Shown one piece after another: positions 20,321 through 64,000 of a stretch of 64,000 nucleotides of DNA. The notes beneath the pieces were generated by a model that worked only from the letters and a program-made list of their open reading frames with translations, was not told the DNA's origin and ran no database searches. The DNA lies in IMG/VR virus record IMGVR_UViG_3300045988_056908, positions 65,792-129,791 of that record. The stretch is one strand, 5' to 3'. Origin of the DNA: a virus. Both the position numbers and the translations under genes were made by a program. Numbering within the stretch: position 1 is the stretch's first letter; every line of letters starts with the position of its first letter.

Positions 20321-20327
20321 TGTTATG

Positions 20328-34032: not shown

Positions 34033-34512
34033 TCAGCCAAATATACAAATCATTGAAGATATAAAGAATACAGCTCCTCCTACTACACTTATCCAACCTC
34101 CAGCATCTTCATCGTTTTTGGATAGTCTACCTCTACCAGTTAATAGCATAAATACTGATATTCCTAATAGTATGGTGCCTACTACAATTCCGGCTATCTC
34201 CTTATAGAGGAGTTTCCACACTACGATAGTTATTGCTGTTTGTCCTAGGTTGGATTCTGCTATTCTTATGGCTGAATCTTCAACTGCTTTTAAGGTTTCA
34301 TTGACTGCTACGCCAATTTCCTTACCAAGATTTGCATACTCAGAAACTTCCTTGATTTCACCCTTTATAGCTTTCTCTGTTGTTATCTTCTCAATTTGAG
34401 TTCTAGTATCGCTTGGCAACTTATCATAGTCTTCTTGTGATATAGTTATCTGAGAAAAAGCTGCTACGCTCATCCAGAGCATAGCAAGCATAAATACAAG
34501 GAACTTTTTCAT
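34033..34512 (-). CDS. membrane protein (signal peptide plus C-terminal TM helices)
   Basis: MKKFLVFMLAMLWMSVAAFSQ signal peptide; hydrophobic C-terminal third. Confidence 0.5.
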   Translation of the reverse strand: MKKFLVFMLAMLWMSVAAFSQITISQEDYDKLPSDTRTQIEKITTEKAIKGEIKEVSEYANLGKEIGVAVNETLKAVEDSAIRIAESNLGQTAITIVVWKLLYKEIAGIVVGTILLGISVFMLLTGRGRLSKNDEDAGGWISVVGGAVFFISSMICIFG

Positions 34513-35072
34513 TAGTCAAGCCATTCAAATTCTTCACCCTTGAAATGTCTTGCAAAACAAGCATCGAACACTAGCTTTCCAAACTGGGTTGATACGTATT
34601 TGGCAATTTCTTCAGATTTGCACGCTAGCATCCCGACATGGGAATAGGCACTGCCGACGCCATCGTAAGAATAGAAAAAGCCGAGACCCGCAATGCCGCC
34701 ATAAGACGCGCTGCCGCCTACCAACGCGAATTTCTCGCCCTGATAACGGAAGTGACCAATGACCTCTGCATCCTTCGGAACTGATTTCATTCTAAAGAAG
34801 CGAACCCAGGGATACCATATAGTACCAGTTAACAGATTGAACTTGTGACCTTCATTTAGCGCATCCAAGACTGTCTGCAACTTAGCTAGAGAATTTACAG
34901 ATCTATTGTAGTAAATAGTATCTCTAGTAACACACCCTAGATAGTTTACAGCATCCTCATAGGTTCTTATCCGTCCCATAATGTTTTCTGGAACGATTTC
35001 AACATTGCCAGTTTCGGCATTATAGATGGGTTTATAACCATCTGGACATTCAATTTCAATTGTCTTTTTCAT
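34512..35072 (-). CDS. remote DGR target protein (CLec-like variable C-terminal region)
   Basis: C-terminal LVGGSASYGGIAGLGFFYSYDGVGSAYSHVG parallels the tail-fibre VR LLVGGYASDGGNAGLGYFFSNRVVGFASSTVG. Its coding DNA matches TR 59740-59837 except mainly at TR adenines. Confidence 0.7.
   Translation of the reverse strand: MKKTIEIECPDGYKPIYNAETGNVEIVPENIMGRIRTYEDAVNYLGCVTRDTIYYNRSVNSLAKLQTVLDALNEGHKFNLLTGTIWYPWVRFFRMKSVPKDAEVIGHFRYQGEKFALVGGSASYGGIAGLGFFYSYDGVGSAYSHVGMLACKSEEIAKYVSTQFGKLVFDACFARHFKGEEFEWLD
34632..34729 (-). repeat. DGR variable repeat 2 (VR2)
   Basis: About 95 nt align to TR. 17 mismatches sit at TR adenines; 4 non-A mismatches cluster at the 3' end (IMH-like). A GC-rich island in an AT-rich genome. 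Confidence 0.7.
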
Positions 35073-39671: not shown

Positions 39672-41032
39672 GGTTTTCTTTTTAATTCGTTAAATCTTTT
39701 TCTTGCTAATTTTCCATTCACAAATGTTTCTGTAACTGTTCTGATGCCTTCTATGTGAATGGTATACTCGAAGGCGTGGGTTCCAGTGAGAGTTATCACT
39801 CTTCCCCCATGAATCTGTAAATCTTGCGCGAACAGTTGAATCGCAGTGTAATCTGTTGAATTTTCTCATTTTCTTTTTCTTTTAATCCTGACTACCTATT
39901 TCTAGGTAGTTTCGTCTTAATTTTCAAAGACTCGTCAGAGGATTTTTAAAAATATCCCCACCGCTGTGGGATAAAAAATGAACACTATCAAAAGACCTTC
40001 CTGTGCCACTCTCCTTTGAATTGTTTCACAACAATTACATAGTCTCTGGGCGTACCCATTATAATCTCCAATAATACACAACAATAGTTCCCTACTCTGG
40101 ACTTGAACCAGAATCTTCTCCTTTAGAGAGAGATATACTGACTTGTACTAGTAGGGAAATACTCCACCTGCCTAAGCTCCCTATGGGAGCTGTAGGCTAT
40201 CTAGAATAAGATGGAGAGTTATTTAGATAGTTTCCTACGCTATCTACGTTACCAACGTCCACTAAGAATATAGGTAGCTAATCCATATTCTTGCGACTGA
40301 GTTCGAGGTAGGAAATATACCCTTATGAGGTATCCTCTTATCAGCTAGCCTATCCTTATCGCTCCGCGATAAGGGTTTCTAGCGGCTTATACTAGGCAAC
40401 TTCTAAATAAATAAAATGCATAACTATAAGTGATATGCTTTGGTCGACTGGCATATCAGCAGTACTTCATAATGTTGCTATAAGCGACCAACCCTATAGC
40501 TCAATCCTCTTGTAATAGTGTTTAAGTTTGCGAATATACACATTACAATCGTAGCAGTTATTTTCGGATATTGGGCTATCTGCGTAACCCCGCTTTTTGT
40601 TGCCTTTTTATAGGCTGATGTTAGAGTAAATAATCATTGTAGTATGAGTTATAAAACTCGTCCTACTGGCGATTTTTTGAAAACTGGAAAAAGTCGGAAA
40701 ATTGGGTGTCGGGGTTGTGGACAATTCTTCTCCTTACTCTCCATATTTTCACGTGAAACATACACGATTTTACTAGAAATGATAGTCTTTCCTATCAGCC
40801 AGACATAAAACTAAAACTACTACAAAAGTTAACTCGGTTTTTGATTTTTTTTTGTTTTGTTGTTGATTTCTCCGTTGACCAATGTTCCAATGATGGAGTT
40901 CATATGGGCATTTTATTTTAACTCATAATACCTTAGAGCTGCACGTTTGACTTATTTTAAATCTCGTTGTGCGCTGAGATTGACTCTAAGATTCGGTCAC
41001 ACTCTCACTTATTTATACACGAGAGAGTCGTG
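39672..41032. other. about 1.36 kb of ORF-poor DNA carrying several perfect hairpins (39893-39910, 39953-39972, 40168-40182, 40349-40371) and a T-rich tract (40845-40860)
   Basis: No ORF of 60 aa or more on either strand. Examples: CTACCTATTTCTAGGTAG, CCTTATCGCTCCGCGATAAGG, GCTCCCTATGGGAGC. Confidence 0.4.
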
Positions 41033-42582: not shown

Positions 42583-42654
42583 TGCCCTATGGTGTAATGG
42601 TCAGCACAGATGACTCTAAATCATTTAGTCTGGGTTCGAATCCTAGTAGGGCAA
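42583..42654 (+). tRNA. amber suppressor tRNA, anticodon CUA, derived from tRNA-Gln (predicted to insert Gln at UAG)
   Basis: TGCCCTA TG GTGTAATGGTCAGCAC A GATGA CTCTAAA TCATT TAGT CTGGGTTCGAATCCTAG TAGGGCA A. Anticodon loop CTCTAAA gives CUA. The backbone (TGGTGTAATGGT..., CCTAGTAG...) is closely similar to tRNA-Gln(UUG) at 30390-30461. Confidence 0.8.
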
Positions 42655-42684
42655 CGCCAAAATTAATAGTTATGATAAATTTAA

Positions 42685-47805: not shown

Positions 47806-47807
47806 TT

Positions 47808-50168
47808 ATGCCTAGAAAGAAAAAAATATTACCTGAAGAAATCTAGAATATAGTAGATTAGGTAAGAGAGAAAGAACAAAAAGAGGATGCCAAAGAAGCT
47901 AGAGAACTAGTATAGAAGATAAGAGAGGAAAGAGGCAAAAATGCTGATTATTGGGATGTAAAAAGAGGAGATAAGATAGAGGTATTTGACCCTACTTTAT
48001 CTTATGAAATAACTGGATATAGACCAATAGATGAAACACATGGTCTTGACTTCGACCCAGATTGGTTTACTGAGACCAGAGAAGTGTATAGAAAAACTGG
48101 AAAGTATTGTCCATATCTAAAAGATAGTAAGAGATATAATGAGTTTTGGAAGGAATAGTATAGAAGATGTAAATATGGAATGACTGTTAATGGTTATACA
48201 ATTACTGGAGATAACTATTTCTTCCTAAACTTCTACTAGCTTCCTATTATTGATGATAACAAGGCATCTGGAGAAGGAACAAGTAGTGACTTTCCTATAT
48301 TTTTCGCATCTCATTATATGTTCTTTCATTATCTATAGATGGCTAGAGTTCTGCATAAACACGCAGCTCTTATGAAAGCTCGTTCTATTGGATTCTCTGA
48401 AATAAATGCATCCTTATCTGCAAGAATGTATTCAGTAATCAGAAGAAGCAGAGTAATGATTACTTGTTTTAATGATACCTTCCTTAAAGGTACTTTTAGT
48501 AAGTTTGATAATGCTTTAACATTCTTGAATACTTGTACAGGAGGAGGATTCTTCAAACTACGTTTGATTGACCAAGACTTAAGAAAGAAGTCTGGTAAAC
48601 AGATTAAGGTAAACGGACAGTTTGAGGATGTTGGATTTAAATCAGAAGTAGTTGGAATAAATGGAGCTAAGGCATCTAATATTCGTGGAGACCGTGTTGA
48701 CCTATTAATATATGATGAAGCGGGGTCTTGGCCCGGACTAGATACTGCTGTAGTGCAGGGACAAGAGCTTTGTGAAGTTCAGGGTAAACCTCGTGGAACA
48801 ATGTTATTTGGAGGTACTGGTGGTGATATGGGTGCTCCATTAGCAGGTCTTAAGAAGATATATTACAATCCAAAAGCTTACAAGGTTCTTCCATTTAGAC
48901 ACAATTATACACAGGACGGAACTACTATTGAAAGTGGGTTCTTCATTCCATATTTTGTCTAGTCTCTAAATTCAGAATACATGGACCATAGAGGTGTATG
49001 TAATACAGTAGAATATAAAAAGTATCTATAGGAAGAGCGCGACAATTTATTAGCAGTTCCAGACGACTATCTAAAGAAGTGTGCCGAACGATGTTGGAAT
49101 GCAGAAGAAGCATTTAATCTTGAAGGTGTTAACAAGTTCAACAAGATTCTTATTGCGGACCAGTTAGCTAATATAAGACTTAAGAAAATAGGACCAAGAC
49201 CAGAATCTGGATACATAGACTACTTCTATAAAAATAATAAACACACCTAGGATAATATAGATGGTTTTAAATGGATTCCTAATATTAACGGAAAAGTAAA
49301 AATACTTGAACATCCTGTATGGTCTGATTTGTATAAAGAGTAGATGGATAAACTTAGATAGGAAGCTGAGGAAAGGGGAGAAGAATTTGAATCTCCAGCG
49401 TACAAAGAAATGCATGATTTATATGTTGCAGGAATAGACGGTATTGATATAGGAGCTAGTCAAACTTCAAAAGAAACAAGAGATCCTTCTGATTTCTGTA
49501 TAACTATAAAAAGAAGAGCATTTGGTCTAAACGAACCGTAGTATGTTGCTATGTATAAAGACAGACCTAATGACATTAGAGAAGCCTATAAAATAGCTAT
49601 GTGTTTAGCTAGATACTATAATTGTAGAATAAACATAGAAGCTACCCGTGTAGGTATGATTACCTGGGCTAGAGAAAAGGGTTGTTTAAACTACTTTATG
49701 AAAAGACCTAGAGCTACTCTAACAGACGTCAAGAATGGAACTACTAAATAGTACGGAACACCCGCTACCAAAACTATTATAGAACAACATACTGATTTGA
49801 CGGCAGCCTTTATTGAGGATTTCTGTCATACTATATGGTTTGAAGAAATGTTAGACCAATTTACTGGATATAATGATGAGAATAAAGGTAAATTCGATAT
49901 TGTAGCCGCTGTGGGAATGACAGAATTGGCAGACTAGGAATTGTCAGGAAGATAGCCAGTGCTTGTTGAAAAAGAAGTTGAACAATTCCAAGATTATGGT
50001 TATTATTACGACGAGAGAGGAATCAAAAGATTTGGGGTTATACCAACTTCTAAGACTTTTGAAACTAACATACAAAAAAATGAATACGATGACCCATACA
50101 GAATTGAAACAAGTGATTCTAGGTTATATGAGAGACTTGTACAAAATGGAATACGTAGGTGGGCTTGA
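47808..50168 (+). CDS. terL: terminase large subunit (TerL); about 25 in-frame TAG codons read as sense
   Basis: Single frame from ATG 47808 to TGA 50168 (786 aa) once TAG is read as sense. ATPase region KQIKVNGQFEDVGF...RVDLLIYDEAGSW. Nuclease region DFCITIKRR...IAMCLARYYNCRINIEATRVGMITWAREKG. Listed fragments 48339.., 49551.., and 49959..50168 are all in this frame. Confidence 0.75.
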
Positions 50169-50424
50169 AATTCAGAACCTAGATCCAGTTGGTTATAAGG
50201 TATCGTTTAACTTTGATAGGTCAGAGATGCCTTTAGTCATTATAGCTGATTTACCTGATGAAGAATTTCTCCCATTTATAAAGGAAGAATTAAGAAGTAG
50301 GAAGTTACAAAGAGTTAAATACTATAATGCAACTAAACTTCCTCCAGAACAGCATAATTTATGTTATGAAAGAAAAAGAACTGATAGACAAGACGAACGA
50401 GGCTATTGCGGAGCTTGTATATGA
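50080..50424 (+). CDS. hypothetical protein overlapping the TerL 3' end in another frame (start uncertain)
   Basis: Frame +1 ORF (listed 49963..50424). First plausible ATG after the TerL core is at 50080. Confidence 0.3.
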   Translation: MNTMTHTELKQVILGYMRDLYKMEYVGGLEIQNLDPVGYKVSFNFDRSEMPLVIIADLPDEEFLPFIKEELRSRKLQRVKYYNATKLPPEQHNLCYERKRTDRQDERGYCGACI

Positions 50425-52537
50425 TAAGTACGAATTATAGAAAGCCTATAATTACTACAACGGAAAGAGAGACCCAGAATAGTTTCGTTACCTGGAAGAA
50501 AACTTCGGAATAGGTAGTCCTACTTCTGTAGAATTTACACCGTTACTAAAGAAGCACGTAGATGCTCTAGTAGGGGAATATCTAGGAACCCCTATCCTTC
50601 CGAAGATTTCTTGTAAGGATTCAGATACCATTAGTAATATCACTAGAGAAAAATAGTTGGAAATAACTAAAGGGATAGTTAAATTTCTTAGAGACCATTT
50701 AAGTAATTCTATTCTGAAATTTATCGACGGAAAAGATATTACAGATAAAGCCGTGAAGACTTAGTTAGATAAAATTATTCAAGACATTGATTAGTCTTTT
50801 ATTTCTCAATATGAGATAGCTGCATAGAATATTATTCATTATATCATGCAGTCTAGAGAAACCGATTTAATAACTAAACTCCGATAGTTACTTACAGATT
50901 TATTAATTACTGGCTATACATTTTTCAGAGTAAAATCATCATCTTCTGGAACTAACATAGAAATAGAAGTTCTGAATCCTTTAAATACCTTCGTAGATAG
51001 GAATCCAGAATCTCCATATGTTAGAAATTCGTACAGAGTAGTAGTTAGAAAATGGATGAGTAAAAGCTAGATATTAGCTAAATACGGAAAAGAAATCTCT
51101 AGAGAAGATTTGAAAAGACTAAAAGATGAATGGAGAGCTGATAATTCAGCTGCAGTTTATAGAAGAGTTTATGGTGACACTTGTACTATAGTAAACGAAG
51201 ATTAGAATCATGAAACTATTCCTGGATATCCAGATAATGAATATAGTGCTCATAGATTTTAGTTAATTCCTGTTTATGATGTAGAGTGGATAGAAACTGA
51301 TGACGATTTTGTAATGTAGAGATACAATACCATTAGAATTGGAGAAGAAATATATATTCTGAGAGGTCTAGACAAGACTGTTATGAGGTCGAAAGATAAT
51401 CCTAATTTCTGCTCTTTGTCTGTGAATGGGGTATATTTCTTAAATCGTTCTCAACAACCGTACTCTCTGATATTAAAGTGTGCACATCTACAGGATAGAT
51501 ATGACTTGTTAAATTATTATAGGGATAACCTGATAGCTAACAGCGGTACTGCTGGAGTAATCATGGATATGTCATTGCTTCCTACTAACCTAGGCGTAAA
51601 ATGGCCAGAAAGAGTATAGAAATGGTTAGCATACAAGAAGGGTGGTATCATGTGGATTGATTCTACTTAGGAAGGGAGAAATGATGGAGCGCAAGCACCT
51701 AACTAGATATACAATGGATTTGATGATACCTTAAAAGCTTAGGCTGTATAGGCTATTGAATTAGCAATTCAATCAGTAGAACAAACTACATCATCTATAA
51801 CTGGAGTATTTAGAGAAAGATTAAATGGAATAGAAACTCACGATGCTGTAACTAACATTAAGCAAGGTGTTACTAACTCTTACATAGTAACCAAGCATTA
51901 TTTCTAGTAGATGGACCTAATCACTTGTGAAATATTATTGGATAGTCTAAACTAGGCTAAAATAACATATAAGAAAGGATTGACTGGTACTATTATACTT
52001 GGAGATAAATACTAGCAGATATTTACAGCGCTTCCAGAATATTTTACGGTTACTGATTATGACATCCATATAACTTCTAGCTCTGAAGTAATGGAAGATT
52101 TACAAACTATTAAAGCCATTATTCCAGAGTTTGTTAAGAGTCAGCAAATGGATCCTGACATCATATTTGAAGCACTAACTGCTAAGAGTCTTACAGACCT
52201 TAAATATAAGGTTAAGAAAGCAGTATAGATTCGTAAAGAAGAAAACAATTAGCTATAGCAGCTATAGGAAAAACTGGAAGAAACTTCACAATAGGCACAG
52301 CAGTTACAGCAAGAACTATAGAAAGCTTAGTAGAAGATAGAAAGTTTGGATGAATAGAGATTAGGATTAGAGTAGCAGAAAATGTAGTTAGAATATAAAG
52401 TTAACTGGCTCAAAGCTCAATCTGATTCTACATATAAAGATAGACAAATGGATATAGAAGAAAAGAGAACTGAAATAGAGTTAGCTTAGCTTCATGATGG
52501 AAATCCATATAATGACAAAATAAGACAAATACATTAA
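50327..52537 (+). CDS. portal protein (many in-frame TAG codons read as sense; start may be 50366)
   Basis: 736-aa frame opens after TAA 50291-50293. M(TAG)LNFL...MKEKELIDKTNEAIAELVYDKYEL(TAG)KAYNYYNGKRD.... Position and size right after TerL. Q-rich coiled-coil C-terminus. Confidence 0.6.
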
Positions 52538-52538
52538 T

Positions 52539-53273
52539 ATGGCAACTGGAACAATTGTATATAATAAGGATTAGCAATAGATTTATCCTATTTCAGATGG
52601 TTCAGTAATTATTAGTAATGCTTCTGGTTCCAAATCAAATGTGGAAGAAGATTTAAAGAAACTATTTAAATAGGTGTCAGACCTTTCTGGTTCTAGTGAA
52701 GCGGTAAATAATATTATTATTAAGATTCATTACTTACCTGCTGACACTGCTGAAGAATCTGAGATAAAATTATCTACTAAATAGTGGACTGATACTTTTG
52801 AACTTCCAACTGAAGAGAATCCATACATCTGGAAAAGAACTAAATTTACTTTCTAGGGAGCTGACGAATCTCAGGGAACTACTATTTATGAGATTGTAGC
52901 AAGCGATGTTTCTACTATTATCTAGAATATATACACTAGAACTGAGGGAATAACTCCAGTTATTGAGTATAAGCAGAAAACAGATGAGGATGGAAATCCT
53001 CTATATGTAGATTCGGAAGGACATGAAACAACGACTGTTACTCCAACTAAAGTGTATGACTATAATTATTATTGGAATGGAAAACCAGCTGGTAAGTTAA
53101 ATAGTCTACCACCGACCCCTAAAGGTTAGTCATATACATGGACAGACTATCCTCAAGATATTAGTTTATCATTTAGTTCAGTTTTTATGTCTAGACGTAT
53201 ACGACAAGAAGGTAAGTGGAAACCATTTTCTACTCCTGCTCAATATGGTCAATGGCCTACTACTGAGTCTTAA
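52539..53273 (+). CDS. virion-associated hypothetical protein (TAG recoded)
   Basis: MATGTIVYNKD(TAG)(TAG)(TAG)IYPISDGSVIISN... 244 aa, in frame to TAA. Confidence 0.5.
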
Positions 53274-53283
53274 TTATTATAAT

Positions 53284-54012
53284 ATGGAATTTAGTATTGA
53301 TATACATACCCAGATTAACGGGGAAATAACTATTGAAGACTTTTCAAAGGAATATGGATAGTATATTGATGAAGATTTAGAGGTAGTAACTTCCTATGAT
53401 TCTTATAAGTATAGTGAAAGTGCTACCCTAAATACTATCATAAAAGTTAGTATAGGAGATGCTACTTTGATAGACGTACTTCTCAATGACCATACAGAGG
53501 ATTTAGACTCTTGTACATTTAAGGTGAAAGAAGATGGATATTATGTAGTAGACCACATAATTCTTCCTAATATGAAATGGTATGAAAATTCATCTGATGA
53601 ATACAAGGAGTATTATGAAACTATCTATATAACTGATGGAGAGAAACTATATAAAGAAGTAGATGGAGAGCTAGAGGAATGTACTGTAAAAGAAATCCTT
53701 GAAAGAAATATAGAAGGGACTACTATCAAAAAATGTAAGGTAGATGTGTTCTTTACAGGAAATCTGCAATAGTGTTATATTAACTACTGTAAGAAACTCT
53801 TTGACTCTTTATTAAATAAGTGTTTAACTAGAGAACATGATGCAGATATATTTGCAAGAGATTTTATCTGGATGACACTTAACATTATAGATTATTTAAT
53901 AGGCTTTAAACAATTCATGGAAGCTGAAAGATTGTTAGCAATGTTCCGTACTTGCGGTGGATTCTGTAACAATCACCATGAACATAAACGTATAGGTTGT
54001 GGATGCTCTTAA
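53284..54012 (+). CDS. hypothetical protein with Cys-rich C-terminus (TAG recoded)
   Basis: MEFSIDIHT(TAG)INGE... incorporates listed ORF 53467..53772 ... ends CGGFCNNHHEHKRIGCGCS then TAA. Confidence 0.5.
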
Positions 54013-54167
54013 AAGAAAGGCTATTAAAAGGTATGAGGATTTCCTTAAAAGGGTTAGAAAGGGATATAGACCAGATTATTAGGATATTTTGAATCTAATT
54101 TGTTTTATTAACCTACCCGTAAAATTAGATAATCACGAATTTATTAAATAGCAATTATTGAATCATA

Positions 54168-55757
54168 ATGATACAGCCTATTTATACTTCGGTAAGCAAT
54201 GCTGATATAAAGCCTTGTGGAAAGAAAGGACATTTAATAAAAAGTGAACCTATACCTCTCCTAAGAAACAACTATCTTGGAGAATATAGAACTGAATTAG
54301 AAAGAGCTAAGGTTAGAAAGAATCTAGGTATTGCTGATGAGTAGAGTCTTCTTTGGGGAAATATAGAAGGAACTATAGAAGCCTAGAAAGATTTAGTATA
54401 GTACATAGAATAGAAATGGACTTATACTAGTGATGTTGCAGAGAATATCAATACTGTAAAAGATGCCTTAGATTATGCTTTATTCTTTATAAGTTAGTAC
54501 GAAGCTAATACAGAAGAAATAGAGGAGATAAAAGTTGATATAAGTAATATCAGAACTTCTATTACTGTACTTAAGGAAGAACTTGAAGAAGAAATTGAAT
54601 CTAACAGAACTGGCATAAACAATCTTTCTGAGAAAATAACCTAGATTAATGAGGCAATAGAGGATATTAACGAGTCTATCAAAAATATAGATGTTGACAA
54701 AAACATCTAGAATTGGATAACTAATAGTCTAAGAAACTCCAAAACCATAGAAATAAAGGATGATAATACTCTAGAAGTAATTCTATCTTAGTAGGAGGAT
54801 AATGCAATACATCTGATTCAGTAGGAAATTCCTCCAGTAGAGGAGGAAGGAGAACCTTCCACAGTAGTTCTACCTGGAATATATGTAAAAGACCTGGAAC
54901 CATCTCTAACAGAGGTAAAGGAAGAAGTTAAGGGAGTATAGGAAGCTTAGAAGAACACTGATTCTAAAGTAGATTCTAATACTGAGAATATCACAAATAT
55001 ATAGACAAGTTTAGAAACTATAGCTACTTATCAAACTGAACTTCCAGATGATACTACTTCTACTGTTATTCAAGGAACTACAGTTGAAAAATTGAAAGGA
55101 AAGCCGTTTAATGAGATTATAGACACTCTATTATTTCCTACTGTTGTTAGAGATTTGGTTTATCCTTAGTTGTATTATAGCTTCACCTCTTAGATTGTGG
55201 AGGTAGGATCCGCTTTACTTACCCCTACTTTAACATTTATAAAAAATGATGCTGGAGAGGAAACTGGTAGAGAAGAAACTATTACCTATAATGATTCTCC
55301 TGTAGAATCTGAAACATATGATTCTATCGGTGTTTATGTGCATTCTGGTACCGTAAATTATGCTGCTGGAGAATATCTTATTAACAACAAGGGAGAGGTT
55401 ACAGACAAGAGGGTGGAGGCTGGTTCAATATCAACTACAGCATAGGTGACTGCTACCTACCCTTGGTATTCTGGTAATACAAATAGTTTAATCAAATAGA
55501 GTCTTGTCCCATTTGGACAATCTTCTGGAATTATTACATTTTCATTAAGTGGAAAGGCTATTATAAAATTACCTGGAAGTAATACTTAGCTAAATTCATT
55601 TACAGTAGATGGAGGACTAGGATACCTAAATGTTGATTTAAGTGGCTGGGAAACTTCTACTGAATAGATAAATGGATTTCCTTATAAAGTATGGACTAAG
55701 AAGGATACTTATTCTTCAGCATTGCCTCATCAAATTAACTTTACTTTATCACAATAA
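54168..55757 (+). CDS. structural (tail-fibre-like) protein with coiled-coil segment (TAG recoded)
   Basis: 529-aa frame MIQPIYTSVSNADIKPCGKKGH... incorporates listed ORF 55197..55445. In frame to TAA 55755-55757. Confidence 0.5.
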
Positions 55758-57625
55758 TGGCATTTAAATATACAGGTGATGCTACATTAGGCGTTGCTTT
55801 AACCGTAGAAACTCCTAAACCTCTTGATAATAGAACAGTAGTCGATAATTTAGACGAATTATATTCTATTCCGGAGAAATATGCTTATCAAGGCATGACC
55901 GTTTCAAATATAGATAACGGAAATATTTATATGCTAGTAGATAAGTCTAAGATTAAATACAAAGAAGGTTGGAAAGCTTCTTATGAATCTATTTAGATAA
56001 TCACCTGTACAGAGGCTGAATATAAGGAATGGTCTGAAAATACCACAGAAGATTTTAAACCTATAGACGAAAATAAAACATATCTTCATGCAGAAACATA
56101 TTATTATATATATGAAGACAGCCTAGATGATGATTAGTTTTATTTATCAGCAGAATGGGGTAAAAAGATAGAGGAATAGTTGAAATAGAAAGCTCTAAAT
56201 ACTACTGTCGTACAGATTAGAACGGATTTAGACTAGACAATCTCTAACCTTTCCAAGTATGCTACTCTTGAAGAGTTAACTGAGAATTATGCCCCTAAAA
56301 CTGATCTAGATTTAGAGGACCCAGAATCCTTGTTATCTAAAGCCTTATCTAACCATTATACTAAGGAAGAAACTGATGACATATTTGTTACCAAAGAAAG
56401 TCTTAGAGGAGAAGGAATGGAAGGAGATGATTTTGTCTTTGTTACAAAGAAATAGTATGACGAAGACCAATAGGCTATTCAAGATGAGCTAGATAAGACT
56501 TTAAAGGTAGATGGAGATGGTTCCCTAGAAAGTATTACTGTAGGATAGATAAAGTCTCCAGTAGTAGAAGGAGAGGATTAGCTAGTAGTAGATGTTAAAT
56601 CTGATGGGTTGTTTGTTGGAGAAGACCAATTCGCAATGATGTCAGATGTTCCTAATCTGGTTACATTAACTGAAGAGGAATATTTAAAACTAGTAGAAGA
56701 GGAGGCTATAGAACCTGACACATATTACTATGTGTATGATGTAACAAATGATGCTAAAGTTTATATTACTAAGGAGTACTTAGATCAAAATTACCATACT
56801 ACACATCAGTATTAGTCCTGGGTTGCCACTAATTATTATTCAAAGACATAGATTGATGAAATTGTTTCTGGTTTATAGAAACTAGGAAGCTACGTTACTA
56901 CAGAAGATATTAAAGCATACTACACTAGCTCGTAGGTAGATGAAAAGTTTCTTACAAAAGAAAATGCTCAATCTACATACGCCACTCAATAGTCGTTAAC
57001 TGACCTTTCCGATTAGATAGCAGAGGAGTATGTGACAAAAGAAAGTTTGAGAGGAGATTCTCCCGAAACCGGTGATGACGATTTTATATTTGTTACCTAG
57101 AAGAAATATTAGGAAGATTAGGATGCCGCTTCTAAGGAATTTAGCACAGAGCTTCTAAAATCAACCTCTATAGAAACTTCTGATATTACTATTTAGAAAA
57201 TTGTCGAAAAAGAAGTACAATAGGGAACAACTGGAGAAAGTTCAGAAGATGAAACAACTGAACAGACTATTGAAAGTTCTGTTAAACTTACTACAGAAGA
57301 CAATAGATTATTAGCATCTGGAAAGCAAGTTGCTCTTACAGAAGAGGTTCCTAAATTGGTATGTCTTCCACAAACAGATTATGATGACTTAGTTGAAAAT
57401 AATAAGACAGAGAACGATACGTACTATTGTACTTATGGAGAAAAAGATATATAGGATACAGGATATGTCAGAAGTGAATATCTGACAGAACGCTACTATA
57501 CAAAAGCTGAGGTGGAAGAATTAATAAAGGCTGCTGTAGACGAATTGTAGAAGAAAATAGATGCAATATAGCCTGGTTCTGGTAACGTACAGGTAGATGG
57601 AGAAAATAAACAATTAATATTTTAA
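55757..57625 (+). CDS. tail-fibre-like protein with internal sequence repeats (TAG recoded)
   Basis: 622-aa frame. Repeated blocks VTKESLRGEGMEGDDFVFVTKK(TAG)YDED(TAG)(TAG)A and VTKESLRGDSPETGDDDFIFVT(TAG)KKY(TAG)ED(TAG)DA. Incorporates listed ORFs 55757..55996 and 56609..56815. Confidence 0.55.
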
Positions 57626-57630
57626 ATAGT

Positions 57631-57840
57631 ATGGGAACAATTTGGGTTGAAGGGTAGTTTAAGAACTCAGCAAAACCAGTAAAAGTTGTTGGAGGAAATG
57701 TAGGAGGATCTGGAATAGACCCAGATACATTAAAGAACTACGCTACCAAGGCTGAACTGTAGAAAGCTGTTGAAGACTTAACTGCCTCCATAGAAGGAAT
57801 AGATCATAATGTAGAAGAAGAAACTTTAATAATACAATAA
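57631..57840 (+). CDS. small virion-associated hypothetical protein (TAG recoded)
   Basis: MGTIWVEG(TAG)FKNSAKPVKVVGGNVGGSGIDPDTLKNYATKAEL(TAG)KAVEDL... 69 aa. Confidence 0.4.
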
Positions 57841-57841
57841 T

Positions 57842-59662
57842 ATGGCAGCTATCAAATCTATAAAGGTTAGAGAAACCGTATATGACTTAAAGGCTACCTA
57901 TGATGGCTCTGGAAATGTTATAGATTAGACATATGCAAAATCTAGTGCCATTCCAACTAAAGTGTCCTAGTTATAGAATGATGAAAATTATTTAAAGGAA
58001 CACTAGGATATAAGTGGTTTAGCTACTAAACCGGAGTTGGAAAGTAAGGTAGATAAAGAATTAGGAAAAGGACTTTCTGAAGCTAATTACACAGAAACTG
58101 AAAAACAGAAACTTAGTGGTATTGCAGATAATGCAAATAATTATGTACACCCAACTACTTCTGGAAATAAACACATACCTGCTGGAGGAGCACTTGGATA
58201 GATTTTAACCTTTTCTGAAGATGGGACTGCATAGTGGGCAGATACTAGTACTAAGTTAAAGAAACAATTTGATGCTCTTAATACTGCTTGGGAAGAATTA
58301 CAAAAAGAGCAATAGAGTCTAAGCAAACAAGTCACAGAGTTAAGCAGTAACGTAGACTTATACTCTTACGGAGTAGAATGGGATATTACCGTATTTTCTC
58401 CTATCCTTACTAGAATAGGAAACCCACTGTTACATAAATCCCTTCCTATTTAGTCTGCTTACAGAGGATGTGTAGCAAATAACGGTGCGGTAAATTACTA
58501 TTTATATCCAGACGATTGGGCTTACAAAGAAGATGGAAATACTCCTTCTGTGCTTGATGGAACTGATGGAACTGTAAGAGTCCACACTCCTAAATTTTAT
58601 GGTAAATCAGGCTCTAATGGAAATAAAAGATGGGTTAGAATTTCTCTAGTAAAGCTTGATGATTCATGGATAGAAATACCAGAACTATTAATTGACGCAT
58701 ATAGAAATACCGTTGATAATACTGTGTCAGCAACCCCTAAAGCTGTGTCTGTGGTCAATACTACAGAAGCATTTAGAGGTGGTGGAAATAGAGCACAATT
58801 CGATGAGTATCTAACTACTGAACTTGATACCAAAGATGCTTTTAGAAGCGATTTAGGAAAACCTAGAACTAATGTTTCTAGAACTAATATGAGAACTTAT
58901 GCTACAAATGCAGGTTCTGAATTATTATGCTATGAATATTATAAATGGATATTCTACTGGAACTATGTAATAGAATATGCTAACTTTAACTCTCAGGCTG
59001 CCTATAATGCCGAGCTTACTTCTGATGGTTATCGTCAAGGAGGACTTGGTCCTGGAGTTACAGACTGGAGTAACTCTGATACAAGTTGGTCTGAATATAA
59101 TGGAACCTATCCTATTACTCCATGTGGTTATTGTAATGATATTGGTAACTTCACTGGAATCAAAGATTTAGTTATTCCAGAGTGTACTGCAACAAACGGA
59201 ACAGGTACAGTAGCGACTAAGACATTTAAAGTTCCAAGATGGAGAGGTTTTGATAATCCATTTGGAGATATTTGGACAAACCTAGATGGAGTAGTTATTC
59301 AAAGAACTGCGGCAAATGAAATCAGTAGTGTATATACTACCACAAACAAGGAAGAGTTTACTGACGTAATTGGCAATAAGACCGTAGCAGGATACGAGGT
59401 AGCGCAAGATGGATACATTAAAGAGCTTGACTTGGGAGAGACAGCAGAGATTATACCATCTTCTTGTACTGGAGCCTCAGCTACAACTTATATGTGTGAC
59501 TACCACTCTTGCAACGCTACCTCTACAGCGCTTCGCACGCTGCTGGTGGGCGGCTACGCGTCTGATGGCGGCAATGCGGGTCTCGGCTATTTCTTTTCTA
59601 ACCGTGTCGTCGGCTTTGCCTCTTCCACTGTCGGGTTCAGGACTCTAAACAGAGTATCTTAA
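57842..59662 (+). CDS. tail fibre or receptor-binding protein; primary DGR target with C-terminal variable region (TAG recoded)
   Basis: 606-aa frame incorporating listed ORF 58550..59662. C-terminal CLec-like segment CDYHSCNATSTALRTLLVGGYASDGGNAGLGYFFSNRVVGFASSTVGFRTLNRVS encoded by GC-rich VR1. Confidence 0.7.
59540..59637 (+). repeat. DGR variable repeat 1 (VR1)
   Basis: Aligns to TR 59740-59837 with about 17 mismatches at TR adenines and about 3 elsewhere. Confidence 0.75.
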
Positions 59663-59739
59663 GATATAAAATATAGAAATCGATTTAGATATAAATCGTA
59701 GGATATTACTTCTAAAAACCGTTGATTGGCAAAAAAGAA

Positions 59740-59837
59740 CTGCTAGTAGGCAGCAACGCGAATAATGGCAGCAATGCAGGTCTCAGCTATTTCAATTCTA
59801 ACAATGGCGTCGGCTTTGCCGATTCCATTGTCGAGTT
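59740..59837 (+). repeat. DGR template repeat (TR)
   Basis: Non-coding A-rich copy of VR1 and VR2, located between the target gene and the RT. Followed by hairpin CTTGCC TCTA GGCAAG (59893-59910). Confidence 0.75.
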
Positions 59838-59978
59838 ATTATATATTTAGAACAATTTATTTTATTTTTTTTTAGTTTGCTAAGTAATATCCTTGCCTCT
59901 AGGCAAAAGACAACGTAGTGTTAAATGAAGGGTGTTAGTAGGTTAAATCTCGAAAGCTTCCGATGAAATATATAAAAA

Positions 59979-61253
59979 TTGAAACGTGTAGGATATTTGC
60001 ACGAACGAGTGTATGATTTGAAAAACATCGAATTAGCTGATGATAAGGCTAGAAGAAATAAATCAATTCGATGTGGTATTAAGTAGCATGATAAGAATAG
60101 ATTAGAAGAAAATAAGGAATTATCAGACAAATTAAAATAGCTAATCTATTAGACTTCTGAATATAGTACATTTATAATATATGAGCCTAAAGAAAGATTA
60201 ATCTTTAGACTTCCATATTACCCTGATAGAATCACTCATCATGCTATAATGAATATTATGGAACCTATCTGGACCAGCATTTTTATAGATTAGACATATT
60301 CCTCTATAAGAAATAGAGGGACTCATAAGGTAGAGTATGATTTATTCAAGGTATTGTAGAAATACCCAGATGAAACTAAATACTGCCTAAAAATGGATAT
60401 AAGAAAATTTTATCCATCTATAACACATGACATCCTGTATGAGATGTTGTAGAAGAAAATAAAGGATAAGAAACTGTTAAGTCTATTGAAGGAAATAATA
60501 TATTCAGCCAAAGGAGTTCCTATTGGAAACTATCTATCATAGTTCTTTGCAAATTTATATCTGACATATTTTGACCACTGGATAAAAGAGGAGTTAAAAT
60601 GTAAGTACTACTTTCGATATGCTGACGATATTGTGATTCTTGGTAATGACAAGAATTATTTGAGAAATGTATTAGTATCTATAAAACTGTATTTGAAACA
60701 AGTTCTTAATTTAGAATTAAAACCTAACTACTAGATATTTCCAGTAGAAAGTAGAGGAGTAGATTTTGTAGGCTACAAATTTTATCACACTTACGTTCTA
60801 TTAAGAAAATCTATAAAAATGAGAATGTTTAGGCTTATAAATCTATATAAGCAAAATAAGATTGATAAAGAAGAATTGGAAAGAAGAATGAGATCTTATT
60901 TCGGCTGGATGAAATTCTGTAATTCTAAGAATTTGTTGAAAAAGATAGAAACTTTGACTGGTTTGAAGTTCTCAAATTGGAATGGAAAGGAAGTCAATAT
61001 ATCTAAGTTTTATAATAAGTATATTCATATCATAGAGGTGGTTGATTATCATAGCCATTTCAGAGTGCACTTTATGTATAACAACAAACCCTATTATTTT
61101 AAAAGCAAGAATAAGAAATTATATTATTCTTTGTTTAGATACAAATTTCCTATAAATTTTAAAGTAACACCTCATGTTAGAACCAAAGAGAATACAAATG
61201 AACGTTTGTCCTTAGGTAATTCAAAAACTTGGCAACGGTACTTATTATTATAA
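59979..61253 (+). CDS. DGR reverse transcriptase (TAG recoded; start TTG 59979 or GTG 60009)
   Basis: RT motifs in one frame: YEPKERLIFRLPYYPDRITHHAIMNIMEPIW (motifs 1-2), LKMDIRKFYPSIT (A), KGVPIGNYLS(TAG)FFANLYL (B), RYADDIVILG (C, YADD), SYFGWMKFCNS. Several in-frame TAG. Ends TAA 61251-61253. Confidence 0.75.
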
Positions 61254-61563
61254 TTATGATATAAGAGAAGTTGAGGCTGAAGTTGAAATACTAGATGAGA
61301 AAGACAGTACTAAATTTGAAACTTAGTACAATTTCATCTAGGTTTTACTTAATGGACAACCTAATTATAAGGATTGCGTAAGAGCTATTATTAGAAGTTT
61401 TATAACCATAGATGAAGAATTTGATTTAATCAACTCGTATAATAGTTATACAAAAAACCTTAGCACAGATTCTTCTATCATAACAGATTATCAAGAATAT
61501 CTTACTAAATTAATGGATATTAAAGACAAAGTCAAAAAAGATTTTGGACTTGTGAATAAATAA
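61198..61563 (+). CDS. hypothetical acidic protein overlapping the RT 3' end (TAG recoded)
   Basis: MNVCP(TAG)VIQKLGNGTYYYNYDIREVEAEVEILDEKD... 121 aa. Frame +1 relative to the RT. Confidence 0.35.
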
Positions 61564-61610
61564 TTTAAAATTGTTAAGTATTATACTTTACAATATTAAA
61601 AATCTAATAA

Positions 61611-62105
61611 ATGGAAAATTACAAAAATTTAAATTTCTCCGCTGAACAAATAAACCAAAAGCTAGCTTGGGTTGGAGATAAGTCTAAGTTAGCAACTACA
61701 TTATAGGAGACTCCTGTAAACTAGATTATGTTTACTAAAGACTAGAAAACTTTAAAAACTATCATAGACGCAAATAACTAGATAATTACCGTAGAGACTA
61801 ATGATATGATAACAGAACCTGGGTCTAAATTGGAGTCTTGGAATGTATATGTGGACCACTTACTCTGCATAAACTCTATATCTTGTGAAGGAACAATGTG
61901 TTCTCATAATTATGTTGAGTTAGGTAATGGCTCTAAAAAGGATATCAATTTAAATGGTTTATACTTATTATACACAGATTGTTCTAAGAGATTAGAATCT
62001 GACATTGGGTATGTTTGGCAATATCTCCCATTGACTGGAGTTATCAAGGCAGGGTCTACTTTTGTTATTAGGGAAAGCAAACTAATACAATTAAAGGTAG
62101 TATGA
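61611..62105 (+). CDS. hypothetical virion protein (TAG recoded)
   Basis: MENYKNLNFSAEQIN(TAG)KLAWVGDK... incorporates listed ORF 61806..62105. 164 aa. Confidence 0.5.
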
Positions 62106-64000
62106 TAAAAGTAGACTCTTATGATATGGAGTGGGATATAGAATTTAAATAGAATAAAGCTGCCTTCTATTTATGTGCTGGAGATTCTTTTAAACCCTTA
62201 TTAGAATCTAATAGCCTTGGCAATCCTTGGGAAGCTAATTTAATTGGGTATATTGATTCTTGTGGATTTGGAGCAGAAGCACCAGCAGAGGGGAATTCTC
62301 CTTTGCTGGTTAATGATAATTGGAATGATATTATCTTTGTTAGATGGTTTATGTTTGAAACGGCTAAACAAGGTACTAAAGCTTTTGCTAAAAGAAAAAC
62401 TAAAGATTTATGGACTTATATAGATTTAACTAAGAATACTACTAAAGCAGGAAATAGTATATAGTATTATTATAGTGACAATATAAAGTTAAAATATGCT
62501 CTTAAAGCTTCATATCTAGGTAAAGATTTCTTTACTATATCTACATTATTTAGATAGGATATTCCTAATTATGTAAATTTAACTTTTGGAAGATAGGCAA
62601 CCGACTCTGGAAGTGGTGCAACTAGATGCTTCAACTGGATTTCTGTTGGATATTATGATGAATATGTGGAGATAAGAAAATAGGGAGAAGAGTGGTCAAA
62701 ACATTATTCTATAATTGAAAAAGATAGTAGTAATACTGCTAACATTAATAAGTTTATAAATTATTATAAAAGATATAAATGGATTGCTCCAGATGGGACT
62801 TTTGTTACTACTCATAAATGTATTATAGATAAATTAACAGCTGGAACTTATGAATATCGAATTAGAAGAGATAATTCTAATTATTCAAGTAAAATTTATA
62901 TTTTTAAAGTATTAGGGGATTCAGAAGTAACTACTTTTAGTTATATTTAGACTTCTGATTAGCAGGGATTTAATTGGCAAGAATATCAAGCTTGGAAAAA
63001 ATCTTCTTATATGATAAGTAAAGAACAAAATATTGAATTTACTATCAATACAGGAGATATTACTCAAAATGGTAATAGAGTTAGCGAATGGTTAGATTAT
63101 TATGATGGTAGAGAATACTTAAATAATCTCCCAGAGATGTTTACTGTTGGAAATAATGATTTGTGTGGAAAAGATTTCTCAGAACTAACAGATGGAGAGG
63201 TAAATACTTCAAAATATAATCATATCAATGTTTTAAGATATTTTACTTTTGAAATGGATCCAGATAATCCATGTTAGGTTACTTGGGAGGAAAATACTTA
63301 TCCTATTTATTCTACATATTCATTTAATTATGGTAAATATCATTTTGTATCTTTAAATTCTGAATATGCTCAAGCTTCTAGTAAAATGTATAAAAATAAA
63401 GATATTGATTCTGATAAAGGAGATATTACATTTGCTCAAGCTGTAAATGCGGCTATTGAAGAATGGTTTATAAAAGATTTAAAATCATGGAAACAAACTG
63501 AAGAATTTCCAACTGGCTGCGAAAAATGTATTGTTTACACTCACGATGCCCCATTTTCAATAGTTACCTATGATTTTATGAATACTAGTACTACTGCTAG
63601 AGCCGGTTCTAAATTAAATACTATAAATAATAATGGAACTTATAGATTTTCTAGGCTCTTTAAAAAGATGGGAATTAGATTAGTAATGGCTGGTCATAAA
63701 CATACTTATGGAATAAGCAAACCTATCTATGATGCACCTATTGAGTATCTAGAAGGTAATAAGGCTAGTTCTGCAGTAGACATATTGTCAGGAGAAATTA
63801 CTACAGATATGTCTAGAAAACCTGTTATTTAGGTGCTACGACAAGATTAGGTATAGGTAAATAATTTTGCTAGATACGAAGTTGTAGAAAATATTACAGC
63901 TCCGACCTATGTAACTTGCTAGGCAACTGGATATAAATTAATCTCTAATAAAGAATAGCCATCTGGGGATGCTTATAGAATACCTTGGTTGCTGGCTTAC
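62102..64000 (+). CDS. large structural protein with calcineurin-like metallophosphoesterase motifs (TAG recoded; runs off window edge)
   Basis: Frame from ATG 62102 (ATGA overlap). Motifs TGDITQNG (GDxxDRG-like), VGNNDL (GNHD/E-like), MAGHKHTYG (GHxH). Incorporates listed ORFs 63011..63277 and 63386..63832. Confidence 0.5.

What the first reader, a model, noticed from the sequence alone, without database searches (positions are those of the whole stretch)
57842..61253. Diversity-generating retroelement (target VR1 - TR - RT) at the tail-fibre locus
The last about 100 nt of the tail-fibre-like gene (VR1, 59540-59637) are repeated 100 nt downstream (TR, 59740-59837). Nearly every mismatch falls at a TR adenine, where VR1 has G, T or C. 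Examples: ctgctAgtAggcAgcAacgcgAATAatggcAgc versus ctgctGgtGggcGgcTacgcgTCTGatggcGgc. Adenine-specific mutagenesis is the signature of DGR mutagenic retrohoming. A reverse-transcriptase ORF with YADD and QGxxxSP-like motifs follows (59979-61253). No Avd-like gene lies between VR and RT. VR1 is GC-rich against an AT-rich genome and encodes a CLec-type motif (LLVGGYASDGGNAGLGYFFS...GFR). The RT itself contains in-frame TAG codons, so the retroelement is only expressed where TAG is decoded.
Basis: partly seen in the sequence, partly recalled or inferred. Interest (0 to 1): 0.85.

Follow-up and report, generated by a model that had tools for sequence, protein, structure and literature searches.

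The report
Two-target DGR in recoded crAss-like phage
A gut crAss-like phage carries a diversity-generating retroelement that rewrites short stretches of two of its own genes; such elements are already described in these phages, but this copy adds a distant second target and a partly overwritten template.

Summary
VR1 (59540-59637) and TR (59740-59837) are an ungapped 98-nt repeat with 19 mismatches, 16 at TR adenines. The RT (59979-61253) is closest to the Bordetella phage DGR RT and has the DGR motif IGxxxSQ, not "QGxxxSP". It needs TAG read as Gln, and two tRNA(CUA) genes lie in the window.

I added four things:
1. A second target, VR2 (34632-34723, minus strand, standard-code arm), lies in a 186-aa protein of unknown fold.
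2. In about 50 related genomes the TR is invariant while every VR differs. Adenine sites are substituted in 73.5% of cells and other sites in 0.23%.
3. The window's TR differs from the family TR at six sites, all ancestral adenines. Against the family TR, 22/22 VR1 and 20/20 VR2 differences fall on adenines.
4. A covarying helix brackets the TR, followed by an RT-17-like spacer RNA.

Avd-less DGRs with amber codons in the RT are already published for zeta crAss-like phages, so this is a new member of a known kind.

The parts
57842..59662 (+). Target gene 1: tail protein, 606 aa with TAG read as Gln (8 in-frame TAG); VR1 encodes its last ~40 residues
   Evidence: ORF map under TAG recoding; phrog_5302 tail protein, E = 1.9e-84; no CLec-type Pfam match (only a sub-cutoff HALZ hit on the coiled-coil); no NCBIfam or PDB sequence match for its C-terminal 430 aa
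59540..59637 (+). VR1, variable repeat (98 nt, 59% G+C)
   Evidence: 22 of 22 differences from the family TR are at adenines; 27 of 27 VR1 copies in relatives are distinct
59630..59635 (+). GTCGGG at the 3' end of VR1: candidate IMH core (TR has GTCGAG at 59830-59835)
   Evidence: TR offset 94 is A in 28 of 29 TRs (G in none) and G in all 57 distinct VRs; the role is inferred by analogy with BPP-1
59700..59711 (+). P1 5' strand (AGGATATTACTT): long-range helix bracketing the TR
   Evidence: Perfect 12-nt complement of 59882-59893; present in the MFE and centroid folds; equivalent helices with unrelated sequences in 37 loci, own-locus -15.7 vs mismatched-locus -8.8 vs shuffled -8.1 kcal/mol
59740..59837 (+). 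TR, template repeat; differs from the family TR at offsets 67, 72, 75, 76, 81, 88, all ancestral adenines
   Evidence: The family TR is identical in 24 of 29 viral-contig copies and 24 of 24 metagenome copies
59882..59893 (+). P1 3' strand (AAGTAATATCCT)
59889..59977 (+). TR-RT spacer RNA with RT-17-like layout: hairpin 59894-59897/59902-59905, outer helix 59930-59935/59956-59961 enclosing UAGUAG, hairpin 59941-59942/59950-59951, then CGAA
   Evidence: Rfam RT-17, 29.7 bits (gathering 40.4), full model length, E = 0.0012. Covariation in 29 loci: 96.8% paired vs 75.1% shuffled; 64 double-change cells vs 15.3; 0 of 500 shuffles reach this
59979..61253 (+). DGR reverse transcriptase, 424 aa, TTG start, 8 in-frame TAG (codons 36, 54, 58, 105, 127, 158, 188, 252)
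   Evidence: RVT_1, E = 1.5e-18; phrog_1423, E = 1e-112; PDB 8ub7 bRT, E = 6.4e-45; 56-58% identity to crAss-like RTs; TAG positions
60969..61250 (+). Basic C-terminal domain of the RT (about aa 331-424, pI 10.0) beyond the bRT-like core; conserved in long crAss-type RTs
   Evidence: No PDB or Pfam match. No detectable relation to the accessory protein of short-RT relatives
34512..35072 (-). Target gene 2: 186-aa protein, standard code (no in-frame TAG), family phrog_11581, function unknown
   Evidence: 836 close homologues whose variability is confined to 11 residues, 121-145. Family of 3,659 proteins in Bacteroidota and phages
34632..34723 (-). VR2, second variable repeat, 25 kb from the TR on the opposite strand; ends in GTCGGG (34632-34637)
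   Evidence: 20 of 20 differences from the family TR are at adenines. 32 of 33 VR2 copies in relatives are distinct
42583..42655 (+). Suppressor tRNA, anticodon CUA, Gln-like body
   Evidence: ARAGORN and Rfam tRNA; alignment with the phage's tRNA-Gln(UUG)
40087..40157 (-). Second tRNA with anticodon CUA

Best explanation
This is a genuine diversity-generating retroelement of the Avd-less, crAss-like type in a roughly 185-190 kb zeta-type crAss-like phage. It has one template and two targets.

Proposed mechanism, with each step marked:
1. Late in infection a phage tRNA(CUA) reads TAG as Gln, which allows translation of the RT; without it the RT would stop at codon 36. Inferred from sequence.
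2. A transcript spanning about 59700-59978 folds so that helix P1 brackets the TR and an RT-17-like spacer sits at its 3' side. The structure is shown by covariation. By analogy with the BPP-1 spacer it recruits the RT and primes cDNA synthesis near the TR's 3' end; that function is inferred.
3. The RT copies the TR and misreads adenines in a context-dependent way. A followed by G becomes G almost always, while AAY and TAT adenines are randomised. The pattern is shown.
4. The cDNA replaces VR1 at the tip of the tail protein and VR2 in a small protein on the other arm. Both VRs end in GTCGGG where the TR has GTCGAG. The pattern is shown; homing is inferred.

The element is active in the lineage. 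In this genome the 3' third of the TR now carries VR-like bases at six former adenines. This cuts the coding repertoire from about 9e12 to about 1e10. Neither VR has been rewritten since that change.
For: - RT identity.
- Adenine bias in the window: (p = 5.6e-10). Against the ancestral TR: 22/22 for VR1 and 20/20 for VR2.
- Lineage-wide test: 57 distinct VRs; adenine cells substituted 1257/1710, non-adenine cells 8/3420. The TR is identical in 24/29 viral-contig copies and 24/24 metagenome copies.
- 13 VR1 and 10 VR2 variants sit between identical flanks.
- Hypervariability of the VR2 protein is confined to the TR's AAY/TAT codons.
- Only three repeat copies exist in the window.
- Recoding. 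Late genes use TAG 105, CAA 53, CAG 24; the sampled minus-arm genes have TAG 1.
- RNA.
- Avd-independent DGRs and non-adjacent phage targets are established (PMC5758913). DGRs with amber codons in the RT are reported in zeta crAss-like phages (PMC12386605). Context-dependent RT errors are reported in bioRxiv 10.64898/2026.06.12.731847.
Against: - No reads were available, so VR heterogeneity within the source sample is untested.
- In this genome both VRs mismatch the present TR at its new non-adenine bases, so there is no sign of homing since the TR changed.
- No accessory protein was found, and the role of the RT's extra C-terminal domain is unknown.
- A hairpin after VR1 is no better than chance.
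- The spacer scores below Rfam's RT-17 threshold.
- Assignment to the zeta group rests on matching features, not on direct sequence comparison.
Confidence: 0.9

Rival explanations
1. The element in this particular genome is a decaying copy. After its template was partly overwritten it no longer homes, and the VRs are frozen products of earlier activity.
For: VR1 differs from the present TR at 59807, 59821 and 59828. VR2 differs at 59815, 59816, 59821 and 59828. The TR now has a non-adenine base at all of these, so neither VR was copied from the present TR. The eroded TR was found in no other assembly.
Against: The RT ORF is intact and 96% identical to RTs of relatives with a normal TR. P1, the spacer and the GTCGAG end are unchanged. 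24 adenines remain in the TR. The change may simply be recent.
Confidence: 0.25
2. The six TR differences are an assembly artefact, a chimera of TR and VR reads, and not a real molecule.
For: Only one of 53 TRs shows this pattern. The source is presumably a metagenome with heterogeneous VRs.
Against: The six sites lie 3-7 nt apart. They are flanked within 6-7 nt by TR-only sequence: unmutated AAC AAT on the 5' side and GAGTTATTATA on the 3' side. Any k-mer of 21 or more therefore has to join them to TR-specific bases (inference). The tract equals neither VR1 nor VR2 of this genome. Two other genomes show smaller adenine-only TR changes (L028 at 4 sites, L037 at 2 sites).
Confidence: 0.08
3. 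The repeat is an ordinary duplication or gene-conversion tract, and the RT belongs to another class (group II intron, retron or defence RT) unrelated to it.
For: NCBIfam has no DGR model. The RT's best NCBIfam hits are group II and retron models, all far below their cut-offs.
Against: The best solved relative is the DGR RT bRT, at E = 6e-45 against 4e-15 for the next class. The SQ motif is present. Substitutions are adenine-only across 57 VRs while the TR is invariant. The tail protein-TR-RT cassette recurs in described crAss DGRs (PMC7290462).
Confidence: 0.01

Closest known systems
[quoted passage not shown]
   Same: Genomes of 183-189 kb, 27 tRNAs, about 34.7% G+C, CTA suppressor tRNA and amber recoding. 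The DGR lies in the structural arm with the order tail-fibre target - TR - RT. There is no Avd, the RT has amber codons, and the RTs are the longest in the group (414 aa reported).
   Different: That paper reports no second, non-adjacent VR for these phages, no TR-flanking RNA structure and no TR variants. I could not compare sequences directly because those genomes are not in the collections I could search.
Bordetella phage BPP-1 DGR (mtd-avd-TR-brt)
   Same: Homologous RT (E = 6e-45) with IGxxxSQ. Adenine-specific TR-to-VR transfer. The VR lies at the 3' end of a tail-fibre gene. A structured spacer of about 140 nt lies between TR and RT (141 nt here). The VR and TR 3' ends differ, as with IMH and IMH*.
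   Different: No Avd. The RT has an extra basic C-terminal domain of about 90 aa. The spacer is RT-17-like, not RT-10. There are two targets, one on the opposite strand 25 kb away. RT translation depends on stop-codon suppression. No significant hairpin follows the VR.
crAssphage LMMB and Suoliviridae (cr7_1, cr55_1) DGRs (PMC7290462)
   Same: RT 52-58% identical, including the C-terminal domain. Same cassette order. Same P1 helix, hairpin and AAGAYAACGU spacer layout. Same AG-to-GG rule. cr7_1 also has TAG codons inside its RT.
   Different: Genomes of about 100 kb from other families. I looked for remote VRs only in the window's own lineage, not in these genomes.
Architecture A / Lineage 3 DGRs of Wu et al. 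2018 (PMC5758913)
   Same: TR-RT core without avd, HRDC or MSL. Associated with Bacteroides and relatives. Phage DGRs with a second target within 50 kb are described there as common.
   Different: Membership of Lineage 3 was not tested because no tree or reference sequences were available. Their acidic CH1 accessory (160-169 aa) could not be compared. The acidic ORF after this RT also occurs in IAS virus without an RT, so it is probably not an accessory.
Rfam RT-17 / RT-18 RNA motifs (Weinberg et al. 2017, PMC5737381)
   Same: Same position, immediately upstream of an RT gene. Same layout: GCC/GGC hairpin, A-rich linker, and a helix enclosing UGGUAG-hairpin-CGAA.
   Different: The score is below the gathering threshold (29.7 vs 40.4 bits). 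The Rfam model does not include the TR-bracketing helix P1. The authors assigned only RT-10 to a DGR and left the others open.

Membership tests
Diversity-generating retroelement (DGR) | Reverse transcriptase of the DGR clade with motif-4 [LIV]GxxxSQ and catalytic YxDD | tested here: met
   VPIGNYLSQ and YADD are present. The best PDB match is bRT 8ub7, E = 6.4e-45, aligned over aa 41-328. The motif is invariant in the crAss-type RT alignment.
Diversity-generating retroelement (DGR) | TR/VR repeat pair whose differences fall on TR adenines | tested here: met
   16 of 19 against the present TR. 22/22 for VR1 and 20/20 for VR2 against the ancestral TR.
Diversity-generating retroelement (DGR) | TR conserved while VRs vary among related genomes or within populations | tested here: met
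   TR identical in 48 of 53 genomes. 27/27 VR1 and 32/33 VR2 copies are distinct. Substitution rate is 73.5% at adenines and 0.23% elsewhere. Read-level heterogeneity within one sample was not testable.
Diversity-generating retroelement (DGR) | Non-coding TR adjacent to the RT gene | tested here: met
   The TR lies 141 nt upstream of the RT start, in the gap between the target gene and the RT.
Diversity-generating retroelement (DGR) | Accessory protein Avd (or HRDC/MSL/CH1); not universal, absent in about 29% of DGRs | tested here: not met
   No ORF lies between VR1 and the RT. Pfam finds no Avd in the flanking ORFs. The ORF after the RT is a general crAss gene. This is consistent with Architecture A (PMC5758913) and most zeta crAss DGRs (PMC12386605).
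Diversity-generating retroelement (DGR) | IMH at the VR 3' end versus IMH* in the TR, plus a downstream hairpin (defined in BPP-1) | tested here: inconclusive
   There is a fixed difference, GTCGGG in all 57 VRs against GTCGAG in the TRs. The 5-bp hairpin after VR1 is matched by 69 of 200 shuffles, and hairpins are no stronger after VRs than after TRs in 37 loci.
Diversity-generating retroelement (DGR) | Variable protein with a C-type-lectin (or Ig) fold displaying the VR | tested here: inconclusive
TAG-to-Gln stop-codon-recoded phage | Long ORFs only when TAG is read through; a suppressor tRNA(CUA); TAG aligned to Gln in homologues | tested here: met
   Plus-arm ORF coverage rises from 0.19-0.40 to 0.93-1.00. 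There are two tRNA(CUA), one Gln-like. RT TAG codons 188 and 252 align to invariant Gln. Late genes have TAG 105 against 1 in the sampled minus-arm genes.
Zeta crAss-like phages (Crassvirales) | crAss-type TerL and portal, ~155-190 kb genome, many tRNAs, two oppositely oriented arms | tested here: inconclusive
   TerL phrog_6681 and portal phrog_6547. Relatives' contigs are 183-192 kb. 27 tRNAs. The arms switch near 42 kb. Nearest deposited DNA is crAss-like at 64-70% identity. No named zeta genome was available for direct comparison.
Rfam RT-17 RNA (RF03020) | Score at or above the curated gathering threshold | tested here: not met
   29.7 bits against 40.4. The layout is the same and the helices covary in relatives, so it behaves like an RT-17 relative without qualifying as a member.

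The most novel reading that the evidence does not exclude
One template serves two expression programmes. Besides the late, TAG-recoded tail fibre, the DGR diversifies a small protein (phrog_11581) encoded in the standard-code arm. Its predicted fold matches no solved C-type-lectin or Ig variable protein. That would make it a previously unrecognised DGR scaffold that may act away from the tail, for example in host takeover or as a separate adhesin. In addition, the adenine-only, 3'-polar change in this genome's TR (with smaller ones in two relatives) would show that mutagenised cDNA or VR sequence can occasionally overwrite the template itself. This would be a self-corruption route for DGRs.
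Probability: 0.2. Interest if true: 0.6.

Novelty: new member of a known kind. Interest (0 to 1): 0.4.

Why it matters
The core finding is ordinary for this phage group, but the locus is an unusually clean natural experiment. About 50 near-identical genomes share an invariant template and carry more than 100 independent VR outcomes. This gives a selection-aware view of DGR RT error spectra, including near-deterministic A-to-G at three synonymous AG sites. The data also assign a function-bearing context to the orphan RT-17-type RNA motif: a DGR spacer plus a TR-bracketing helix. They flag a large, unannotated protein family (3,659 members) as DGR targets. They also show that standard annotation misses or truncates these RTs because of recoding; the RefSeq cr7_1 RT is one example. 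The eroded TR explains the kind of 'non-canonical' TR/VR mismatch that the literature attributes to random drift.

Tried and rejected
1. **Fused accessory protein.** I tested whether the RT's basic C-terminal domain is a fused copy of the ~110-aa basic protein (phrog_19665) that short-RT relatives encode between VR and TR. BLASTP gave nothing and hhalign gave probability 0.1%, so it is not supported. Neither domain has a PDB match.
2. **Acidic ORF 61174-61563 as a DGR accessory (Avd- or CH1-like).** It is phrog_11557, pI 4.8, and has a 45%-identical homologue in IAS virus with no RT nearby. I rejected it.
3. **BPP-1-style hairpin after the VRs.** It is no better than shuffled sequence.
4. **CLec fold for the VR2 protein.** The first AF2 run, with a shallow alignment, failed (pLDDT 43). 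The second run (pLDDT 79) found no PDB neighbour. AFDB was unavailable. BFVD gave only uncharacterised phage proteins.
5. **Homology between the two targets beyond the VR.** Only the VR segment aligns.
6. **A simple 'copy the 3' neighbour' slippage model for AG-to-GG.** It predicts A-to-C before C, but A/G is observed.
7. **Eroded TR in other assemblies.** None was found among 24.
8. **Further VR copies in the window.** None was found.
Full report
**Observation.** Positions 59540-59637 and 59740-59837 align without gaps exactly 200 nt apart at 81% identity. Of 19 mismatches, 16 lie at TR adenines (16 of the TR's 24 A). Three do not: TR 59807 G, 59821 G and 59828 T. Fisher p is 5.6e-10. Adenine-masked versions of the TR never match shuffled copies of the window. 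VR1 is 59% G+C in a window of about 35%.

**Genetic code.** The window has two arms. The minus-strand arm (1 to about 42000) is fully open in the standard code. The plus-strand arm (about 46600-64000) is open only if TAG is read through: ORF coverage rises from 0.19-0.40 to 0.93-1.00. The six late genes sampled (four structural-arm genes, the DGR target and the RT) contain 105 in-frame TAG against 53 CAA and 24 CAG, while the sampled minus-arm genes contain one TAG. Two tRNAs with anticodon CUA lie at the arm junction, at 40087-40157 (-) and 42583-42655 (+). The second closely resembles the phage's own tRNA-Gln. In the RT, TAG codons 188 and 252 align with invariant Gln in standard-code homologues. 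Codon 188 is the Q of the DGR-diagnostic SQ motif. Under the standard code translation would stop at codon 36.

**The reverse transcriptase.** The ORF 59979-61253 starts with TTG and has 8 TAG codons.
- It matches RVT_1 and phrog_1423 (E = 1e-112).
- Its best solved relative is the Bordetella phage BPP-1 DGR RT (8ub7, E = 6.4e-45). The next RT class scores 4e-15.
- Its closest deposited relatives are crAss-like phage RTs at 52-58% identity.
- Those RTs share a basic C-terminal domain of about 90 aa (pI 10) beyond the bRT-like core.

**Targets.** VR1 ends the tail-protein gene 57842-59662 (phrog_5302, E = 2e-84). A search with part of the adenine-masked TR found a third copy on the minus strand. 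This is VR2, 34632-34723, inside a 186-aa standard-code ORF (34512-35072) 25 kb away. No fourth copy exists in the window. Full-length relatives also show three copies per contig.

The VR2 protein belongs to phrog_11581. This family of 3,659 'hypothetical' proteins occurs in Bacteroidota and their phages. In other phages, members are the DGR target adjacent to the RT. Its 836 close homologues differ almost only at 11 residues, which correspond to the TR's AAY and TAT codons.

**Comparative test of activity.** An exact scan of viral contigs with an adenine-masked core returned 68 loci from about 35 contigs of 95-270 kb. A metagenome scan returned 25 more.
- The family TR is identical in 24 of 29 viral-contig copies and 24 of 24 metagenome copies.
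- All 27 VR1 copies and 32 of 33 VR2 copies are distinct.
- Over 57 distinct VRs from relatives, adenine cells are substituted 1257/1710 (73.5%) and other cells 8/3420 (0.23%).
- Thirteen different VR1 and ten different VR2 sequences sit between identical flanks.

This is strong evidence that the element is active in the lineage and that one TR serves both targets.

**The window's TR is itself altered.** It differs from the family TR at offsets 67, 72, 75, 76, 81 and 88. All six are adenines in the family TR (p = 5.6e-4) and all lie in the 3' third. The closest relatives, with RTs 96% identical, have the normal TR in the one copy (L106) whose upstream sequence could be read and whose spacer matches the window's, so the window's state is derived.

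This accounts for every 'non-adenine' mismatch. Against the ancestral TR, 22/22 VR1 and 20/20 VR2 differences are at adenines. It also shows that neither VR has been rewritten from the present TR.

The tract looks like a typical VR 3' end placed in the TR. It stops short of offset 94, where TRs have A and all VRs have G; that site is a likely IMH/IMH* difference. I infer either mutagenised cDNA homing into the TR or VR-to-TR conversion.

An assembly chimera is unlikely, because the sites are 3-7 nt apart and tightly flanked by TR-only sequence. Only reads can exclude it. Two relatives show smaller adenine-only TR changes (L028, L037). The change lowers the amino-acid repertoire from about 9e12 to about 1e10.

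**Substitution spectrum.** Adenines followed by G become G in 437 of 456 cells (A 18, T 1, C 0). This includes three synonymous third-codon positions (CTA, GTA, GCA), where protein-level selection cannot act. Other adenines show all four bases. The same AG-to-GG rule holds in cr7_1, LMMB and cr55_1. Strong context dependence of DGR RT errors has recently been reported (bioRxiv 10.64898/2026.06.12.731847). I could not separate RT bias from nucleotide-level selection.

**RNA.** The TR is bracketed by a perfect 12-nt inverted repeat, 59700-59711 and 59882-59893. In 37 non-redundant DGR loci with RTs down to 51% identity, the equivalent segments pair at -15.7 kcal/mol on average. Mismatched loci give -8.8 and shuffles -8.1. 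In 25 of 37 loci at most 1 of 100 shuffles does as well. The paired sequences are unrelated between lineages.

The 141-nt TR-RT spacer matches Rfam RT-17 over the full model but below threshold: 29.7 against 40.4 bits, E = 0.0012. Its three helices covary in 29 loci. 96.8% of cells are paired against 75.1% in shuffles, there are 64 compensatory cells against 15.3, no shuffle of 500 reaches this, and slid controls collapse.

Weinberg et al. linked RT-10 to the BPP-1 spacer and guessed that other RT motifs serve other DGRs (PMC5737381). This locus supports that for an RT-17-like RNA. Its role in RT recruitment and priming is inferred by analogy.

**Accessory proteins.**
- No Avd was detected in the ORFs I scanned: the RT, both targets and their immediate neighbours.
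- The acidic ORF after the RT (61174-61563, phrog_11557) also occurs in IAS virus without an RT, so it is an ordinary crAss gene.
- Short-RT relatives carry a basic ~110-aa gene (phrog_19665) between VR and TR.
- The idea that the long RTs' C-terminal domain is its fused counterpart failed hhalign.
- Avd-less DGRs are established: Architecture A, 29% of DGRs, and Lineage 3 (PMC5758913).

**Comparison with what is known.** The window matches published zeta crAss-like 'group 2' phages feature for feature: 183-189 kb, 27 tRNAs, 34.7% G+C, CTA suppressor, amber recoding, DGR-positive, longest RTs. That paper already reports DGRs in 18 of 43 zeta genomes, amber codons in seven RT genes, absence of Avd in all but two genomes, and CLec tail-fibre targets (PMC12386605). 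Non-adjacent targets within 50 kb are common in phage DGRs (PMC5758913).

The core finding is therefore a new member of a known kind. I did not find the following in those papers:
- the second target in the standard-code arm,
- the phrog_11581 scaffold as a DGR target family,
- the eroded TR,
- the TR-bracketing helix.

**Verdict.** Confidence that this is a lineage-active DGR is 0.9. Interest is 0.4: ordinary in kind, with several informative details worth a specialist's follow-up.

Noticed in passing
window 40213-40404 (-): A RAGATH-14 RNA (154 bits, above the gathering score) lies immediately beside the tRNA(CUA) at 40087-40157, at the junction of the two coding arms.
   Followed up: no
window 20325-20824 (-): A phage-encoded tmRNA: the full 374-position Rfam model is matched over 500 nt, which suggests an insertion. 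ARAGORN did not report it.
   Followed up: no
window 15423-37907 (-), 40087-40157 (-), 42583-42655 (+): ARAGORN finds 27 tRNA genes and Rfam two or three more (25192-25272, 22538-22610), almost all on the standard-code arm. ARAGORN labels the two CUA tRNAs 'Pyl', but the one at 42583 is Gln-like.
   Followed up: partly
window 35184-35642 (-): The gene just upstream of the VR2 gene is a partial paralogue of the small-target family (hhalign probability 87%, E = 3.7e-6 over aa 8-94) but has no VR. It may be an unvaried sibling.
   Followed up: partly
window 34033-34512 (-): The VR2 gene's stop overlaps the start (TAATG) of a gene for a protein with a signal peptide and C-terminal membrane segments. 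This suggests coupled expression.
   Followed up: no
TR offsets 5, 8, 38 (window 59745, 59748, 59778) and relatives L001-L068: At three synonymous third-codon adenines followed by G, VRs carry G in about 95% of copies and never C or T. The same AG-to-GG rule holds in cr7_1, LMMB and cr55_1.
   Followed up: partly
L028 and L037 (IMG/VR contigs 3300045988_059870 and _056936): Two other genomes have adenine-only changes in their TR: four A-to-G at the 5' end in one and two A-to-G in the middle in the other. Template erosion therefore recurs at low frequency.
   Followed up: partly
L069 (NC_055895.1 cr7_1) 3501-4739: The RefSeq RT CDS of phage cr7_1 is annotated from an internal start (locus 3780). 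The full RT has five in-frame TAG codons, so the deposited annotation is truncated by unrecognised recoding.
   Followed up: partly
L115, L117, L118, L128, L129, L133, L142, L150: Short-RT relatives carry a conserved basic ~110-aa gene (phrog_19665, pI 9.0) between VR and TR. Pfam does not recognise it as Avd. It is either a very divergent Avd or a different accessory protein.
   Followed up: partly
window 55757-57625 (+): The fibre-like gene upstream of the target contains internal direct repeats about 645-651 nt apart (families D3-D5), so it has a duplicated module.
   Followed up: no
window 61611-62105 and 62102-64000 (+): A lamin-tail-domain-like ORF overlaps, in another frame, a large metallophosphatase ORF that is 69% identical in DNA to the 'phosphatase' of IAS virus. 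This may be a programmed or artefactual frameshift, or simply overlapping genes.
   Followed up: no
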